Shown: positions 32,158-35,846 of the stretch, one piece after another
Numbering within the stretch: position 1 is the stretch's first letter
Layout: the number at the start of each line of letters is the position of its first letter
Origin: a virus
Strand: one strand, 5' to 3'
UHGV virus genome: UHGV-0128973
Length of the DNA: 64,000 nt
Notes under the pieces: generated by a model
Database searches by the model: none
What the model was told of the DNA's origin: nothing
The model's input: the letters and a program-made list of their open reading frames with translations, nothing else
Position numbers and translations under genes: made by a program

Positions 32158-34418
32158 AAGAGCTGTGCTATGGATCTGTTTGCAGTGGAATTGAAGCCGC
32201 GAGTATTGCCTGGGAACCGTTGGGTATGCGTCCGGCGTGGTTTGCTGAAATCGAGCCTTTTCCATCTGCCGTTCTTGCGCACCGCTGGCCCCATGTCGCC
32301 AACCTTGGCGACATGACAAAACTTGCCAAAAAAGTCCTGGCTGGGGAAATCGAATCCCCTGATGTGCTCGTCGGGGGTACGCCTTGTCAGGCATTCAGTA
32401 TCGCGGGCTTACGTGGTGGGCTTGATGATGAACGCGGCGCGCTAACTTTGAAGTATGTGGAGCTTGCAAATGCAATTGACGACAAACGGTCTGAGTCCTT
32501 CCTCAAACCGACAGTTATCGTCTGGGAAAATGTCCCAGGAGTCCTGTCATCGGCAGATAACGCCTTCGGATGTTTCCTTGCCGGATTGGCTGGAGAAGAT
32601 GCGCCATTTGAACCAGGTGATCGACCTGAATCAGGAAAAAGTAACGCGTTCTGGCGGTGGGATGGCAAAACCGGTTGCCATGCTCCAAAGTGGCCGCAGT
32701 GTGGTTGTATTTATGGACCGCAGCGAAAGGTGGCCTGGAGAATCCTTGATGCCCAATACTTCGGAGTGGCACAACGACGCCGACGCGTGTTTGTTGTCGC
32801 AAGTGCTCGAACAGACCTCGATCCCGCAACGGTACTTTTTGAGTTCGAAGGCGTGCGCCGGAATATTGCGCCGAGCCGAAAAAAGAAGGAAATCGCTTCC
32901 GCCATTATTGCAAATGGCGCTGCAATCAGTGGCGAAAGCCTAAATCCATGCCTACACGCTGACATGCCACCCGGTATGAAATCGACGAAAGCCGTAAACG
33001 CTTTCAGGATGGCGGCATTTGGGGAATATATTGACGATGAAACCGCATCGACAGTAAAGGCAAGAGATTTTAAAGATGCCACTGACCTTGCCGTTTTTAG
33101 CAGCACAGGAGCAGGTTTTTGGTCAGAAGGGCATGGTACATTGCGGGCACGTGAGCAAGAAAGCCATGAGCATCTTGTTACATTGGCTTTTCCTGAGCGT
33201 ATGAGCGGTACACAACATGCTGCAACTAAGAATACTTCACCATCTCTAATGGCTAAAAATCCAACAGCTGTATGCTATGAAGTAAGAAACGCAGAAGTAG
33301 CTGTCCGCCGTCTTACCCCTGTCGAATGTGAAAGGCTGCAAGGTTTTCCTGATGGGCATACGTTGATCCCGACGGAAAAGCGTAAAAAAGTTAATTCAGA
33401 TGAACTGGCATATCTTCGCAATCACTATCCAGATTTAAGCGAAGAAGAGGCCGCGATGCTTGCAGCTGACGGACCGCGTTACAAAGCGATCGGCAATAGT
33501 ATGGCAATACCAGTAATGTGCTGGATTGGCGATCGGATTACTAAGGCCGTATGTCGGCAGAAAGAAGGAAGTGAAACAAAAGAGCGAAAAGTTAAACCAG
33601 CGGCAGAATTCGAACGGTCCATATTCAAATGGGCTGGTGGAAAATTTGGTGTTCTGGAACAAATCTTTCGCTATTTGCCAGAAGGGAAGCGCCTGATTGA
33701 ACCTTTCGTTGGTGGCGGAGCTGTCTTCATGAATGCCGGATACCAGGAAAATCTGCTAAATGATGTGAATGCTGACCTGATTAACTTTTACAAGACTCTG
33801 CAACGCGAGGCGCATTCACTTATCACTCTGGCACATCGTTTCTTCCAGGACTACAACACGCAGGAAGGATACCTGGCAGTACGGAATGCGTTTAACAAAC
33901 AAGTCTATGATGATTTACATCGCGCAGCGGCGTTTTTGTTCCTGAACCGACATTGTTTTAACGGATTGACGCGTTACAACCAAGCCGGTGAGTTCAATGT
34001 CGGTTATGGGAAGTATAAAACTCCGTATTTCCCATTGCAGGAGATGGAAGCCTTCCTTGGTGCGGAAGGGCGTTCTGAGTTTGTATGTGGTGATTTTGCT
34101 GCGGTGATTGAAGCTGCCGGAGAAGGAGATGTCATCTTTTGCGATCCGCCGTATGAACCGCTCCCAAATACAGAGGGATTCACGAACTATTCCGGTCATG
34201 ACTTTAAGTTTGAAGAGCAAAAACGCCTGGTGTCTCTGTTGACGGATGCTCATCGCCGAGGTGCAAAGGTTCTCATTACTAACAGTGGCGCGCCAAACAT
34301 CAGAGAACTTTATCAGGACAGTGGCTTCAGAGTGGAACCTCTTTTTGCCAGACGTTCTGTGTCTTGTAAGGGGGACACTCGAGGTGTTGCTCATGACGTT
34401 ATAGCAATATTGCTCTAA
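32154..34418 (+). CDS. dmt: Bifunctional DNA methyltransferase Dmt (754 aa): an N-terminal C5-cytosine MTase-like domain plus a C-terminal Dam-like N6-adenine MTase.
   Basis: N-terminal motifs [23 protein letters not shown] and QRR.R. C-terminal motifs [16 protein letters not shown] and DPPY. Confidence 0.9.
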
Positions 34419-34436
34419 TAAATTTATTAGTGTAAT
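34409..34436. promoter_or_regulatory. Bipartite, overlapping inverted C1 operators (probably Op72) at the ban operon promoter.
   Basis: ATTGCTCTAATAAATTT (34409-34425) overlaps the inverted AAATTTATTAGTGTAAT (34420-36). A TAATAT -10-like hexamer lies inside. Confidence 0.75.
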
Positions 34437-34444
34437 ATCGCCTC

Positions 34445-34628
34445 AATGAATCGTGATTTATAGAGCGATTTAGCTGTTAGCCGCGACAGGCGCGGCGGCA
34501 AGTATGGCGGGGTAGTGACTCCTTCCCCCTCATGACGCCGAGTTGCCAGGTTGACCATACGCCTAAGTGGCAACACCGAAGTGCGTTACGAGCTTCCAGT
34601 TTGCCCATCTTCGGGTGGGCGTTTTTTT
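34445..34628 (+). ncRNA. Candidate structured leader RNA or sRNA of the ban operon, ending at an intrinsic terminator.
   Basis: No ORF. Successive hairpins (CCGCG-ACAG-GCGCGG; GTTGCCA...TGGCAAC) precede the terminator. The 5' end is inferred from the operator/promoter position. Confidence 0.35.
34603..34628 (+). terminator. Strong rho-independent terminator inside the ban operon leader.
   Basis: GCCCATC-TTCG-GGTGGGC (UUCG tetraloop) followed by GTTTTTTT. Confidence 0.75.
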
Positions 34629-34811
34629 CAGGGTTTTCGTCATGGTTAGCGACTTTGCGGCGGTTTAGAAACTGACCATTAAAGTAAATGCAAACGATGA
34701 TCTGATGATGGTAGCGGCCTAAGAAGCCAGACGCCACGGGGTATGAGTCGTCCCCCGTCAAAAAATCGACCGCAGAGTGTCCCCGTCTGTGTATTAGGGA
34801 ACGGGGAGGCA

Positions 34812-34888
34812 CAACAGGTAAGGGCGCTGGTGTGATTAACCAGATGAACGAGAAGGGGCCATCTGTTGGTCAGCGTCCTTTCCTGTTG
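34812..34888 (+). ncRNA. Conserved long-hairpin element, copy A.
   Basis: CAACAGGTAAGGGCGCTG...CAGCGTCCTTTCCTGTTG. The stem sequence is shared with copies B and D. Confidence 0.4.
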
Positions 34889-35093
34889 CGTCTTCTTTTC
34901 AGCGTAACAGCGGTGCTTAACAGCACTTTGGGTACAGTTCCACGAATTTACGGGTATATCCCGTCATGCTGAAAGCGCTAATCACGCTGGAAGCCAGGGT
35001 TATGCATCCCCTGTTACCGAATTGCAGCCAGGGCGCGGTGCGCCGAAAAGCATACGGAGGTGGAAGCCCTCGCCGGAGACGTACCCGGCAAGT

Positions 35094-35168
35094 GATGGTG
35101 TAGCTCAGCGGTAGAGCAGTTGGCTGTTAACCAACTGGTCGGTGGTTCGAATCCACCCACCATCGCCA
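35094..35168 (+). tRNA. trnA: tRNA-Asn (anticodon GTT), CCA encoded.
   Basis: Acceptor GATGGTG/CACCATC, D-arm GCTCAGCGGTAGAGC, anticodon loop CTGTTAA, T-arm GGTGGTTCGAATCCACC. Confidence 0.9.
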
Positions 35169-35173
35169 ATTTA

Positions 35174-35260
35174 GGGGAGTTAGTCCGTAGGGGTAGCGGG
35201 GTAGACTGTAAATCTACTGTCATTGCGACTCGGGTGGTTCGACTCCATCACTCCCCACCA
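35174..35260 (+). tRNA. Class II tRNA-Tyr-like gene (anticodon GTA, long variable arm), CCA encoded.
   Basis: Acceptor GGGGAGT/ACTCCCC, anticodon stem-loop GTAGA-CTGTAAA-TCTAC, variable arm TGTCATTGCGACTCG (compare E. coli tRNA-Tyr CGTCATCGACTTCG), T-arm GGTGG-TTCGACT-CCATC. The D-stem is weak at 3 bp. Confidence 0.7.
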
Positions 35261-35264
35261 AATT

Positions 35265-35340
35265 GCCGGTTTAGCTCAGTTGGTAGAGCAGTCGCTTTGT
35301 AAGCGAATGGTCAGCGGTTCGATCCCGTTAACCGGCACCA
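35265..35340 (+). tRNA. trnT: tRNA-Thr (anticodon TGT), CCA encoded.
   Basis: Acceptor GCCGGTT/AACCGGC, D-arm GCTCAGTTGGTAGAGC, anticodon loop TTTGTAA, T-loop TTCGATC. Confidence 0.9.
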
Positions 35341-35343
35341 ACA

Positions 35344-35426
35344 CAACAGGTAAGAGCATTTGTAGAGTTCGACTCTCTACCGTGGGCTTTTTCCCGCGAT
35401 GCGAGCCATAAATGCTCTTACCGTTG
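35344..35426 (+). ncRNA. Conserved long-hairpin element, copy B, with an internal T-arm-like hairpin.
   Basis: CAACAGGTAAGAGCATTT...AAATGCTCTTACCGTTG encloses GTAGAG-TTCGACT-CTCTAC and CGTGGG-CTTTTT-CCCGCG. Confidence 0.4.
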
Positions 35427-35573
35427 TGATGAAGTGCAGCTCTTAGAAGCAACCAGAAGATAAGCATCTGGCTTCACAACATAAACCGCAGGAACGACCA
35501 ATAAACGGTAGTCCGTATGGAGAACACCCCGTTGAGGAAGAGGCCTGGCCGGAACCGTAACCGGCACTACAAC

Positions 35574-35655
35574 GTTGAGAACACTGGCGTAACGGGGTCA
35601 TATCCCAATCTACGAATAAATGTTGCGTTGCAGCGTGACAACCAGTGTTCTCAAC
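35574..35655 (+). ncRNA. Long-hairpin element C carrying the ACGGGGTCATATCCCAATCTAC motif.
   Basis: A perfect 14-bp stem (GTTGAGAACACTGG / CCAGTGTTCTCAAC) encloses the motif at 35592-35613. Confidence 0.4.
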
Positions 35656-35846
35656 ATTGTGGTGAATGCACAGGCTGATGTGCCGCAACTACAGTAGTGC
35701 GCGCTTTGCGGGGCTTGCTACAACCCTGTGTCGGAGTTCAGCACCGACCATCACAGTTTGATTCTCTGGCATGAGCATAACGCTGAAATAAGTCCAGCCT
35801 GGTGCGGCCCGATCACCCGCCGTTAGCTCCACGAAACGGAGCACGT

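What the first reader, a model, noticed from the sequence alone, without database searches (positions are those of the whole stretch)
34437..34628. Terminated structured leader RNA directly behind the C1-controlled ban promoter
Right after the bipartite C1 operator (34409-34436) there is about 170-190 nt with no ORF. It folds into several hairpins and ends in a textbook intrinsic terminator (GCCCATC-UUCG-GGUGGGC plus U7, 34603-34628). Every downstream gene of the operon (four tRNAs, tciABC, ban, dbn) lies beyond this terminator. There are two readings. The leader could be an independent sRNA made as soon as C1 repression lifts. Alternatively, expression of the tRNA and helicase operon could need regulated read-through (attenuation, antitermination or a riboswitch-like mechanism). 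I do not recall either being described for the ban operon.
Basis: partly seen in the sequence, partly recalled or inferred. Interest (0 to 1): 0.5.

Follow-up and report, generated by a model that had tools for sequence, protein, structure and literature searches.

The report
Mosaic structured leader of P1 ban operon
The untranslated start of the phage P1/P7 ban operon really is a structured RNA ending in a terminator-shaped hairpin. Its core is a conserved pseudoknotted element shared with the DicF small-RNA locus of lambda-like prophages, so the kind of thing is partly known, but the conserved element itself is undescribed.

Summary
The C1 operators and P1ban promoter are followed by about 183 nt with no conserved ORF, ending in GCCCAUC-UUCG-GGUGGGC plus U7 (34603-34628). 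All operon genes lie beyond it.

It is not wholly new. The P1 GenBank record marks a "dicF-like region" there. But Rfam's DicF model does not match.

The homology is to a 105-nt element (34478-34582) lying just upstream of DicF in the Qin prophage. That element occurs in 4412 of 5426 complete E. coli genomes and has no Rfam family. It folds as an H-type pseudoknot with an inserted variable hairpin, supported by compensatory changes between P1, P7 and lambdoid copies.

In every family member examined, a variable hairpin plus U-run follows 40-90 nt downstream.

No riboswitch, no conserved antiterminator pairing, and no homology to HK022/HK639 put RNA was found.

Most likely mechanism, inferred by analogy with Qin DicF: partial termination makes a short early RNA, and read-through expresses the rest.

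The hairpin is also linked, in phage D6, to an unannotated tmRNA-like RNA (tag ANDDLMMVAA*) immediately downstream. That RNA is shared with 293 phage records.

The function of the conserved element is unknown.

The parts
34409..34436 (.). Divalent C1 operator Oban a/b (Op72ab). It overlaps the dmt stop codon (dmt ORF ends at 34418).
   Evidence: An exact 17-mer consensus plus a 14/17 inverted copy. Same position as the protein_bind features of P1 AF234172 and P7 AF503408.
34410..34438 (+). Promoter P1ban: -35 TTGCTC at 34410-34415 and -10 TAATAT at 34433-34438. The transcript start near 34445 is inferred.
   Evidence: Position transferred from the P1 record annotation; sequence read. The generic sigma-70 scan did not pick it up.
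34447..34472 (+). Predicted 5' hairpin of the leader (GAAUCGUG...CGCGAUUU-type stem). Specific to P1-like phages.
   Evidence: RNAfold dG -7 kcal/mol. No covariation data.
34478..34582 (+). Conserved about 105-nt RNA element shared with the DicF-upstream region of lambdoid prophages.
   Evidence: Covariance model R1 scores 98 bits, E 5e-21. It is 82% identical to Qin L003 2501-2597, which ends 25 nt before DicF. No Rfam family matches.
34481..34495 (+). Helix H1, CCGCG/CGCGG, within the invariant GGCGCGGCGG box.
   Evidence: 96.6% of cells are paired, but there are no compensatory changes, several disruptions are uncompensated, and the 5' strand is absent in pPE4. Weakly supported as a helix; the sequence itself is invariant.
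34502..34560 (+). Pseudoknot stem S1: GUAUGG (34502-34507) pairs with CCAUAC (34555-34560), which lies in the loop of S2.
   Evidence: 99.2% of cells are paired. The variable pair is U-A in 60, U-G in 2 and C-G in 2 sequences, never mismatched. P7 has GUAUGG/CCAUAC and P1 has GCAUGG/CCAUGC. The 3' strand was partly fixed by the fishing pattern.
34508..34530 (+). Variable hairpin Hv, with a pyrimidine-rich loop (..CUCCUU..).
   Evidence: Three pairs show changes on both sides. There are at least 7 stem variants (GGGG/CCCC, CUGGG/CCCAG, CCAGGUG/CACCUG and others). P1 and P7 differ here (85% identity against 96% in the flanks).
34542..34574 (+). Stem S2: GUUGCCA (34542-34548) pairs with UGGCAAC (34568-34574).
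   Evidence: C-G in P1/P7-like copies and U-A in lambdoid copies at the same pair (58 U-A, 6 C-G, 0 unpaired). This excludes the put-like mini-hairpin GUC-AGGUU-GAC.
34575..34602 (+). Spacer with a small predicted hairpin (GAAG 34578-34581 / CUUC 34593-34596) and a GUUU run just before the terminator.
   Evidence: RNAfold. Homology with lambdoid copies ends near 34578, and homology with D6 starts near 34600.
34603..34628 (+). Hairpin GCCCAUC-UUCG-GGUGGGC, then G, then U7: an intrinsic terminator by form.
   Evidence: Conserved in all 11 distinct P1-type sequences and in D6, with a U-run of 6-8. Actual termination has not been measured.
34631..34808 (+). Adjacent tmRNA-like RNA module. It is not part of the finding but lies on the same transcript: a 5' GGGUUUUCG.. 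segment, a tag frame at 34690-34722 (ANDDLMMVAA*), and two pseudoknots (34738-34770 and 34773-34806).
   Evidence: 70-85% similar to unannotated DNA in 293 phage records. Alignment A3 shows a conserved tag frame and compensatory pseudoknot changes. Rfam RF04321 hits are sub-threshold. ARAGORN calls it only at lowered thresholds.

Best explanation
The 190-nt stretch is the untranslated head of the C1-repressed ban operon of a P7-like punavirus. It is a mosaic of conserved RNA modules.

Anatomy (shown):
- P1ban with its overlapping C1 operators.
- A small 5' hairpin.
- A 105-nt element that folds as an H-type pseudoknot with an inserted variable hairpin. It is homologous to the element immediately upstream of DicF-type sRNA hairpins in the repressor-controlled early-left operons of lambdoid prophages.
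- A 28-nt spacer.
- A UUCG-capped hairpin plus U7, sitting where the DicF-type hairpin sits.

Mechanism (inferred by homology of architecture with Qin):
1. When C1 repression lifts, RNA polymerase transcribes the leader.
2. A fraction terminates at the U7 tract. This gives an RNA of about 183 nt that carries a typical Hfq-type 3' module (U-rich stretch, hairpin, poly-U). It may be trimmed in the spacer.
3. The remaining polymerases read through into the tmRNA-like RNA, the tRNAs, tciABC, ban and dbn.

So the terminator sets the ratio of an early small RNA to operon expression.

The P1/P7 hairpin is not DicF, so any small RNA made here has a different seed.

The role of the conserved pseudoknotted element is not established. 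I take it to be a constant cis-acting platform for the variable hairpin, acting in biogenesis or in termination control.
For: Identity and annotation: the window is 98.6% identical to P7 and 96% to P1. The P1 record carries the operators, the promoters and a 'dicF-like region'.

Homology: the match is to Qin positions 2501-2597, while DicF is at 2622-2673.

Distribution: 4412 of 5426 E. coli genomes hold the element, up to 8 copies each. 61 phage records hold it, all punaviruses or lambdoid phages.

Structure: 95.8% of cells are paired against 35-53% when the partners are slid. Six pairs have changes on both sides (shuffle mean 2.1; 1 of 500 shuffles reaches 6).

Constant architecture: all of about 93 distinct copies have a hairpin plus U-run 40-90 nt downstream, in at least 10 hairpin types. 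Nearly all are preceded by a YUUU run.

Context: the element is always on the strand of the early operon and downstream of the repressor gene.

Need for read-through:
- The scan of 33800-37400 found no sigma-70 consensus promoter at all, and it also missed P1ban.
- The P1 record annotates no + strand promoter between P1ban and the P2dbn promoter inside ban.
- The P7 record states that Op(ban) controls the tRNA genes.

Qin precedent: DicF arises by early Rho-independent termination plus RNase E cleavage, and read-through transcripts are processed by RNase III (PMC9438474).

Circumstantial: in an hfq mutant host, ban, dbn and trnA are over-expressed during P1vir infection, while the neighbouring dmt operon is under-expressed (bioRxiv 10.64898/2025.12.28.696737).
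Against: No transcript ends have been mapped for P1 here. Termination efficiency and any processing are inferred.

The P1 hairpin is a 7-bp UUCG hairpin with no room for a seed in its loop. Rfam DicF gives no hit.

In D6 the same hairpin travels with the downstream tmRNA-like module and without the element. Other phages have an unrelated hairpin, without a U-run, at the same distance upstream of that module. So the hairpin may belong to the right-hand module rather than being a DicF-type sRNA.

Covariation rests on few independent events in a closely related set. Part of the pseudoknot's 3' strand was fixed by the search pattern.

In the hfq data, trnI goes down, which does not fit a simple operon-wide effect.
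Confidence: 0.5

Rival explanations
1. The conserved pseudoknotted element is a cis-acting read-through device: a factor-independent antiterminator or anti-Rho RNA. It would be functionally like HK022 put but structurally unrelated. It modifies the transcribing polymerase so that it passes the hairpin-U7 and the more than 1.6 kb of untranslated RNA that follows. The short terminated RNA would then be a by-product.
For: Position: the element is promoter-proximal in repressor-controlled early operons and always lies just upstream of a terminator that blocks the operon.

In cdtI-type phages it sits in a 600-nt non-coding leader after PL.

No N-type antiterminator was recognised among the flanking ORFs.

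The GGCGCGGCGG box is invariant, and helix H1 does not explain that invariance. The same 9-mer occurs in HK022 putL, where mutation of GCGGG abolishes activity.

In P1, the first + strand ORF (tciA, 36073) is more than 1.6 kb from the promoter.
Against: Model R1 does not detect HK022 putL or putR, nor the annotated HK639 putL-like RNA, even at E<=10.

The put signature GGCGGG-YUC-AGGAW-GAR-CGGCAAU is absent. Covariation favours S2 over a put-like apical hairpin.

D6 has the same terminator and downstream genes without the element.

The strict 40-90 nt adjacency to one hairpin is not needed for processive antitermination. No further strong + strand terminators were found in the operons scanned.
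Confidence: 0.2
2. The element is a processing or stability domain, or a trans-acting RNA in its own right. For example, it could guide RNase E cleavage, block exonucleases, or bind a host protein or RNA through the pyrimidine-rich loop of the variable hairpin. The terminator would simply define its 3' end.
For: Mature DicF (53 nt) is cut away from the element by RNase E, so the element belongs to a precursor or to a separate product.

The loop of the variable hairpin keeps a UCCU/CUCC motif while its stem changes.

P1 and P7 differ specifically in this hairpin.
Against: In P1 and cdtI-type phages there is no upstream mRNA to stabilise.

The complement of the loop has no other site in the 64-kb window.

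No target or partner was identified, and no experimental data exist.
Confidence: 0.15
3. The hairpin-U7 is an efficient terminator that insulates the operon. The tRNAs, tmRNA-like RNA and ban would then be transcribed from an unrecognised promoter downstream of 34628.
For: The hairpin looks strong (dG -13, U7). The generic promoter scan is insensitive: it missed P1ban itself.
Against: No promoter-like site was found in 33800-37400, and the P1 record annotates no + strand promoter between P1ban and the P2dbn promoter inside ban.

The records assign control of the tRNAs and ban to Op(ban).

From my own knowledge, not checked here: the ban-constitutive bac mutation maps to this operator/promoter region.
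Confidence: 0.05
4. The element is a functionless relic carried along by recombination between lambdoid and P1-like phages.
For: There are mosaic joints on both sides of it.
Against: It shows about 82% identity with compensatory changes across divergent phages, and it is retained in 81% of E. coli genomes in a fixed architecture.
Confidence: 0.05

Closest known systems
dicF locus of the Qin prophage (ydfABC-dicF-dicB operon) and DicF sRNA (Rfam RF00039)
   Same: Both are repressor-controlled early operons. They share the same 100-nt upstream element (82% identity), followed by a hairpin plus U-run preceded by GUUU. Downstream genes need read-through. The P1 record already calls the region 'dicF-like'.
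   Different: The hairpin itself is unrelated. Rfam DicF scores 76.7 bits on Qin and gives nothing at E<=1 on the window. In P1 the module is the very first thing transcribed (35 nt from the start), not the 3' UTR of ydfC. It is followed by stable-RNA genes rather than dicB.
HK022 putL/putR and HK639 putL-like antiterminator RNAs
   Same: Both are promoter-proximal structured RNAs in the early operons of lambdoid phages that lack N, placed upstream of terminators. They share a GCGCGGCGG 9-mer and a UCAGG(A/U)UGA motif with HK022 putL.
   Different: There is no detectable homology with model R1. The architecture differs: a pseudoknot with an inserted hairpin versus two stem-loops. The shared motifs are 45 nt apart instead of adjacent. 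No functional data exist.
Promoter-proximal terminated phage leader sRNAs (StxS of Stx phages, IsrK of Gifsy-1)
   Same: A short RNA is made by termination just downstream of a phage promoter, and read-through gives the operon mRNA (abstracts of PMC7547250 and PMC4825925).
   Different: Those lie in late or antiterminator-gene contexts, with a known protein antiterminator (Q). There is no sequence relation, and no evidence yet that the P1 leader RNA accumulates or acts in trans.
tmRNA (for the neighbouring module at 34631-34808)
   Same: It has a resume-codon context AUAAAU-GCA, a 10-codon tag ending in AA-stop, and pseudoknots after the tag. The 5' segment resembles the E. coli tmRNA 5' end (that last point is from memory).
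   Different: No convincing tRNA-like domain was found in P1. It scores below the Rfam gathering score and is not called by ARAGORN at default settings.

Membership tests
Intrinsic (Rho-independent) terminator | G+C-rich stem-loop immediately followed by a U-tract of at least 5-6 | tested here: met
   A 7-bp stem with a UUCG loop, dG -13 kcal/mol, and U7 one base after the stem. Pair probability is 0.97 in the leader.
Intrinsic (Rho-independent) terminator | Transcript release at the U-tract, in vitro or in vivo | not testable with these tools
   No transcript-end data for P1 were found in the searchable literature.
DicF sRNA (Rfam RF00039) | Match to the family covariance model at or above the gathering score (48 bits) | tested here: not met
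   No DicF hit at E<=1 in 33500-38000. Positive controls: Qin 76.7 bits and an O111 prophage 75 bits.
DicF sRNA (Rfam RF00039) | Placement downstream of the conserved upstream element in a repressor-controlled early operon, ending in a U-run | tested here: met
   The hairpin is 21 nt after the element's end, and the U-run is 43 nt from the reference point used. The same layout holds in all copies.
DicF sRNA (Rfam RF00039) | Base-pairing with ftsZ (and xylR, pykA, manX) mRNAs | not tested
   Host mRNA sequences were not fetched. There is no sequence similarity to DicF, so no reason to expect the same seed.
DicF-upstream conserved element (no public family; defined here by model R1) | Match to the model built from P1-like and lambdoid copies | tested here: met
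   98.1 bits, E 5e-21 at 34478-34582, and the only hit in the window. The window sequence was in the seed alignment. P1, SJ46 and lambdoid copies score 91-130 bits, though most of those copies, or identical ones, were also in the seed alignment.
DicF-upstream conserved element (no public family; defined here by model R1) | H-type pseudoknot (S1, S2) with an inserted variable hairpin, supported by covariation | tested here: met
   Support is limited: one compensatory pair each in S1 and S2, three in Hv, and none in H1.
HK022/HK639 put antiterminator RNA | Two-stem-loop RNA with the conserved stem II core GGCGGG-YUC-AGGAW-GAR-CGGCAAU | tested here: not met
   The core is absent. Covariation supports S2, which is incompatible with a put-like apical hairpin (broken in P1/P7: GCC versus GAC). 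Model R1 does not hit put RNAs at E<=10. put is not in Rfam.
HK022/HK639 put antiterminator RNA | Antitermination that depends on the beta' zinc-binding domain of RNA polymerase | not testable with these tools
   Needs genetics or biochemistry.
Riboswitch or other curated cis-regulatory RNA | Match to any Rfam 15 family | tested here: not met
   Nothing in 34437-34616 at E<=1. There are only weak tmRNA-type hits starting at 34592 and 34617. There are no hits on the homologous regions of other phages.
Transcription attenuator with mutually exclusive terminator and antiterminator | A conserved alternative pairing that sequesters the 5' strand of the terminator | tested here: not met
   The only alternative (GGCAA 34497-34501 with UUGCC 34601-34605) gains 1.7 kcal/mol in the truncated transcript. 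It has no counterpart in lambdoid copies, whose hairpins differ.
Lambda-type nut site (boxA plus boxB, with N protein) | boxB hairpin with a GNRA-like pentaloop, and an N gene nearby | tested here: not met
   The H1 loop is ACAGG in P1/P7 and AAAUGG in lambdoid copies. None of the 10 flanking ORFs matches a PHROG annotated as antiterminator N. The boxA-like GUGCUCUC upstream in lambdoid copies was seen by eye only.
tmRNA (adjacent module 34631-34808) | Tag reading frame with a GCA resume codon, ending in AA-stop, followed by pseudoknots | tested here: met
   The tags are ANDDLMMVAA*, ANDNEFKVAA* and ANDDVVLMAA**, in 6 phages of 4 kinds. Pseudoknot stems change in a compensatory way.
tmRNA (adjacent module 34631-34808) | tRNA-like domain (acceptor stem plus T arm), and family score above threshold | tested here: inconclusive
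   ARAGORN at default settings calls nothing. At 80% thresholds it gives two inconsistent domain assignments. Rfam RF04321 scores 24-33 bits against a gathering score of 47. A motif search found no convincing 3' half. Bp4 has a plausible 3' T arm.

The most novel reading that the evidence does not exclude
The conserved pseudoknotted element (34478-34582) is a new class of factor-independent, cis-acting read-through RNA. It would be functionally analogous to HK022 put but structurally unrelated. It would license RNA polymerase to pass the hairpin-U7 terminator and the long untranslated stable-RNA cluster of the P1 ban operon. It would do the same job in the N-less DicA/DicC- and cI-type lambdoid prophages present in about 80% of E. 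coli genomes. The variable hairpin sRNA would be the terminated by-product.
Probability: 0.15. Interest if true: 0.85.

Novelty: new variant of a known kind. Interest (0 to 1): 0.5.

Why it matters
P1 is a workhorse phage, and DicF is one of the oldest known bacterial small RNAs. Yet neither the curated RNA library searched here nor the papers I could read describes the structured element next to DicF.

The comparison suggests a cassette: a constant pseudoknotted platform followed by a swappable hairpin with a U-run, placed at the head of repressor-controlled early operons. P1 and P7 carry a version with a non-DicF hairpin.

If the platform controls termination or small-RNA biogenesis, it sets how much of the replicative helicase, tRNA and division-related genes is made right after induction.

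It also gives an easy test system, because compensatory mutants can be designed directly from the P1/P7 differences.

Finally, the head of the ban operon turns out to be a stable-RNA cluster that includes an unannotated tmRNA-like RNA.

Tried and rejected
- **Known RNA families.** An Rfam E-value scan of the window and of homologous loci found nothing on the leader.
- **DicF membership.** Rejected.
- **put homology.** I fetched HK022 and HK639, read their put regions and searched them with model R1. There was no hit. The shared 9-mer is noted but judged insufficient.
- **Attenuator model.** No conserved alternative pairing.
- **nut-like reading of H1.** Rejected on loop sequence and on the absence of a recognisable N.
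- **Protein-coding readings.** No Pfam match, and the frames are broken in relatives.
- **Target of the variable-hairpin loop inside the window.** None found.
- **Wider homologues.**
  - The genome contigs pattern scan was swamped by chance hits in G+C-rich genomes and added only E. albertii and E. ruysiae copies.
  - A second BLAST walk from the most divergent member returned the same 61 phage records.
- **By-eye similarity of the cdtI PL leader to the P1 tmRNA-like module.** Not significant (z 1.4) and dropped.
- **tRNA-like domain for the tmRNA-like module.** Inconclusive.
- **Papers not held in the library.** Lobocka 2004, King 2011 and Faubladier & Bouche 1994. I could not see what they say about this region.
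Full report
**What the window is.** Positions 34380-35100 are 98.6% identical to phage P7 and 96% to P1. A 100% identical copy of the leader lies on E. coli plasmid pSA186_4. The P1 record places these features at the coordinates equivalent to the finding:
- the end of dmt;
- the divalent C1 operator Obanab (Op72ab);
- promoters P2ban and P1ban;
- a misc_feature 'dicF-like region', at about 34533-34634 in window coordinates.

The P7 record says that Op(ban) controls the tRNA genes.

**Observation check.**
- Operators: 34409-34425 is the exact C1 operator 17-mer. The reverse complement of 34420-34436 matches it at 14 of 17 positions.
- Promoter: the P1ban hexamers are TTGCTC (34410-34415) and TAATAT (34433-34438). 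A start near 34445 is inferred.
- Terminator: stem 34603-34609/34614-34620, loop UUCG, U7 at 34622-34628, dG -13 kcal/mol. In the ensemble of the full leader the hairpin has probability 0.97.
- ORFs: the short ORFs over the region are not genes. The ATG of the 47-aa + ORF lies in a hairpin that differs in P1. The 111-aa minus-strand ORF, which some pipelines annotate, has no Pfam match and is frameshifted in P1, P7 and SJ46.
- Downstream genes: the four tRNAs and the ORFs matching tciABC, ban and dbn all lie downstream.

Thermodynamic stability alone is not remarkable (z -1.84). The case for a real structure comes from comparison with relatives.

**What the 'dicF-like region' really is.** A BLAST of the leader against complete E. 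coli genomes matched 4412 of 5426 genomes, with up to 8 places per genome. The chromosomal matches cover only window 34481-34578, at about 82% identity. In K-12 this site lies between ydfC and dicB of the Qin prophage. Rfam places DicF at L003 2622-2673, whereas the homology to P1 is at 2501-2597, ending 25 nt upstream of DicF. Rfam's DicF model finds nothing in the window at E<=1. So P1 and P7 share the element that precedes DicF, not DicF. No Rfam family matches this element in P1, or in the cdtI, F1055 or pPE4 copies.

**Structure of the element.** From P1-like and lambdoid copies I derived the following layout:
- an invariant GGCGCGGCGG box, partly in a weak helix H1;
- stem S1, GYAUGG with CCAURC;
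- a variable hairpin Hv inserted after S1's 5' strand;
- stem S2, GUUGYCA with UGRCAAC, whose loop contains the 3' strand of S1.

This is an H-type pseudoknot. P7 has GUAUGG/CCAUAC and P1 has GCAUGG/CCAUGC, and two sequences are U-G intermediates. P1/P7 have GUUGCCA/UGGCAAC where lambdoid copies have GUUGUCA/UGACAAC. Hv occurs with at least seven different stems.

On a model-based alignment of 64 distinct sequences:
- 95.8% of cells pair, against 35-53% when the partners are slid;
- six pairs show changes on both sides (shuffle mean 2.1; 1 of 500 shuffles reaches 6);
- H1 has no compensatory support.

Caveats: the set is closely related, and part of S1's 3' strand was fixed by the pattern used to collect the sequences. 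Model R1 hits the window only at 34478-34582 (98 bits).

**Family architecture and context.** In all of about 93 distinct copies, a hairpin followed by a U-run lies 40-90 nt downstream of the element. At least ten unrelated or partly related hairpin types occur: DicF, the cdtI, F1055 and pPE4 types, the P1 type and others. Nearly all are preceded by a YUUU run. By my own knowledge of Hfq-binding modules, that is the usual sRNA 3' module.

The element is confined to 61 phage records, all punaviruses or lambdoid coliphages and Salmonella phages, and a second BLAST walk returned the same set.

In lambdoid genomes it lies on the early-left operon strand, in one of two arrangements:
- after dicA and small ORFs and before dicB, exo, xis and int;
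- in cdtI-type phages, within a 600-nt non-coding leader after a strong PL (TTGACA-16-CATAAT) and before the first ORF.

In P1 and P7 it starts 35 nt after the inferred transcript start.

- Riboswitch: no Rfam match.
- Attenuator: the only alternative pairing that touches the terminator's 5' strand is 5 bp, gains 1.7 kcal/mol, and is not conserved in the family.
- Processive antitermination like put: I read HK022 putL and putR and the annotated HK639 putL-like RNA.
  - They share a core (GGCGGG-YUC-AGGAW-GAR-CGGCAAU) that the element lacks.
  - Model R1 does not detect them at E<=10.
  - Covariation contradicts a put-like apical hairpin.
  - A shared GCGCGGCGG 9-mer and a UCAGG(A/U)UGA motif remain as an unexplained resemblance. 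The GCGGG part is essential in putL (PMC9378689).
- nut-like site: rejected on the loop sequence of H1 and because no flanking ORF matches an N-type PHROG.

**The terminator has two affiliations.** Homology with lambdoid copies ends near 34578. In phage D6 the element is replaced by unrelated sequence carrying another hairpin plus U-run. Yet from about 34600 onward, D6 matches P1: the same hairpin, a U-run, and everything downstream.

That downstream sequence is itself conserved. Window 34632-34808 is 70-85% similar to unannotated DNA in 293 phage records of very different kinds: Ackermannviridae, N4-like, T1-like and Aeromonas phages. It has these features:
- an invariant AUAAAU-GCA-AAC-GA. 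context;
- a 10-codon frame ending in AA-stop: ANDDLMMVAA* at 34690-34722, ANDNEFKVAA* in phiEa2809, and ANDDVVLMAA** in Bp4, Madison and Sa179lw;
- two pseudoknots whose stems change in a compensatory way: GUCG:CGAC, CCAG:CUGG and CCGA:UCGG in the first, and CCCCG:CGGGG, GCCCUGA:UCAGGGC and GCCC:GGGC in the second.

Rfam's permuted-tmRNA family hits the tag region below threshold (24-33 bits against a gathering score of 47). ARAGORN calls these tags only at lowered thresholds, and for P1 it gives inconsistent tRNA-like domains. I found no convincing acceptor or T-arm partner.

Several of these phages have an unrelated hairpin 10-20 nt upstream of the module. Only P1 and D6 follow it with a U-run.

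So the P1 hairpin sits where a DicF-type hairpin sits relative to the element, but it is genetically linked to the tmRNA-like module.

**Mechanism.**

Shown:
- the anatomy;
- the homologies;
- the covariation;
- the constant pairing of the element with a hairpin plus U-run;
- the lack of a detectable or annotated promoter between the terminator and the operon genes.

Established elsewhere: at Qin, early Rho-independent termination plus RNase E cleavage yields DicF, and read-through RNA is processed by RNase III (PMC9438474).

Inferred: on derepression, a fraction of P1ban transcripts ends at U7 and gives a leader RNA of about 183 nt. The rest continue into the tmRNA-like RNA, the tRNAs, tciABC, ban and dbn.

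I give this 0.5. The main rival is that the element itself promotes read-through (0.2). It fits the position, the invariant box and the more than 1.6 kb of untranslated RNA that follows. It is weakened by D6, by the strict adjacency to one hairpin, and by the absence of any homology to put. A processing, stability or trans-acting role gets 0.15. A hidden downstream promoter and a functionless relic get 0.05 each.

A preprint reports that ban, dbn and trnA are over-expressed in an hfq mutant host while the neighbouring dmt operon is under-expressed. This is compatible with Hfq acting at this leader, but trnI moves the other way.

**Novelty and score.** The finding is a real feature and is partly known as a 'dicF-like region'.

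New here:
- the homology concerns an undescribed, widespread pseudoknotted element rather than DicF;
- the hairpin after it is a swappable part;
- P1 and P7 carry a non-DicF version fused to a stable-RNA cluster.

I could not read Lobocka 2004, King 2011 or Faubladier & Bouche 1994, so some of this may have been noted there. I rate it a new variant of a known kind, with interest 0.5.

Noticed in passing
window 34631-34808 (conserved part); whole gap 34629-35093: The 465-nt 'non-coding gap' between the terminator and tRNA-Asn begins with a tmRNA-like RNA. It has a tag frame GCA..UAA at 34690-34722 (ANDDLMMVAA*) and two covarying pseudoknots. It is shared at 70-85% identity with unannotated DNA in 293 phage records (Ackermannviridae, N4-like, T1-like, Aeromonas). 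No feature under the matches in the listed records marks it as an RNA gene (a few list hypothetical proteins), and the P1 record and the PGAP record of an identical plasmid show no tmRNA or ncRNA gene in this gap. The tRNA-like domain is unresolved.
   Followed up: partly
L256 (Escherichia phage Bp4) 657-949: At 90% thresholds ARAGORN calls a compact tmRNA with tag ANDDVVLMAA**. Its 3' tRNA-like domain is the T arm of the gene annotated as 'tRNA-Cys(aca)'. Rfam tmRNA also matches that T arm (15.5 bits). The annotated tRNA may be part of a phage tmRNA.
   Followed up: partly
window 34813-34825, 35345-35357, 35847-35859 (+ strand): The motif AACAGGTAAGRGC occurs three times on the operon strand (0.14 expected by chance). 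The first copy is the 5' strand of an 18-bp stalk (34812-34829 with 34871-34888). The same motif follows the tmRNA-like module in Madison and Sa179lw, where the stalk encloses a tRNA-like insert. These may be processing stalks that punctuate the stable-RNA cluster.
   Followed up: no
window 35174-35260: An extra 87-nt tRNA with a long variable arm lies between tRNA-Asn and tRNA-Thr (ARAGORN: Tyr, anticodon GTA; Rfam tRNA 41.9 bits). In P1 and P7 those two genes are adjacent and this tRNA is absent.
   Followed up: no
window 35919-36039; L250 2803-2923; L006 2754-2938: Sub-threshold matches to Rfam STnc100 (38-40 bits against a gathering score of 47) lie just upstream of tciA in the window and in D6, and upstream of kil in the lambdoid phage pPE4. 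This is another non-coding piece shared between the P1 ban operon and lambdoid early-left operons.
   Followed up: no
L250 (phage D6) about 1400-1530: D6 keeps the P1 hairpin plus U6 and everything downstream. It replaces the conserved element with unrelated sequence that ends in a second long hairpin plus U-run (GAAGCCGACU...AGUCGGCUUCUUUCUU), giving two tandem terminator-like hairpins. The mosaic joint lies at about window 34597-34600.
   Followed up: partly
L258 (Sa179lw) about 925-972 versus L008 about 2471-2519 and L003: In the T1-like phage Sa179lw, the sequence after its tmRNA-like module (GTGCTCTTTCCGTTGTGGTAATGCGG..) is significantly similar (z 6.8) to the sequence just upstream of, and running into, the conserved element in cdtI. 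The comparison with Qin was weaker (z 2.6). By eye it also resembles the stretch after DicF in Qin. This suggests mosaic exchange of RNA pieces between virulent and temperate phages.
   Followed up: partly
window 34622-34628 and homologues: The U-run after the hairpin varies between 6, 7 and 8 T among P1-like sequences. This shifts the frame of the spurious minus-strand ORF that PGAP and other pipelines annotate here.
   Followed up: yes
window 34508-34530 versus L001 (P1): P1 and P7 are 96% identical around the leader but only 85% identical inside the element. The variable hairpin is replaced wholesale (GGCGGGGUAGUGACUCCUUCCCCC versus GGCUGGGCCUAGUCCUCCCAG). This could be a specificity determinant that differs between these two heteroimmune phages.
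   Followed up: no
L008 (phage cdtI) 29-217, minus strand: Rfam C4 antisense RNA (68 bits) and isrK (60 bits) lie side by side next to the antirepressor gene of this lambdoid phage. This is a P1 immI-like arrangement.
   Followed up: no
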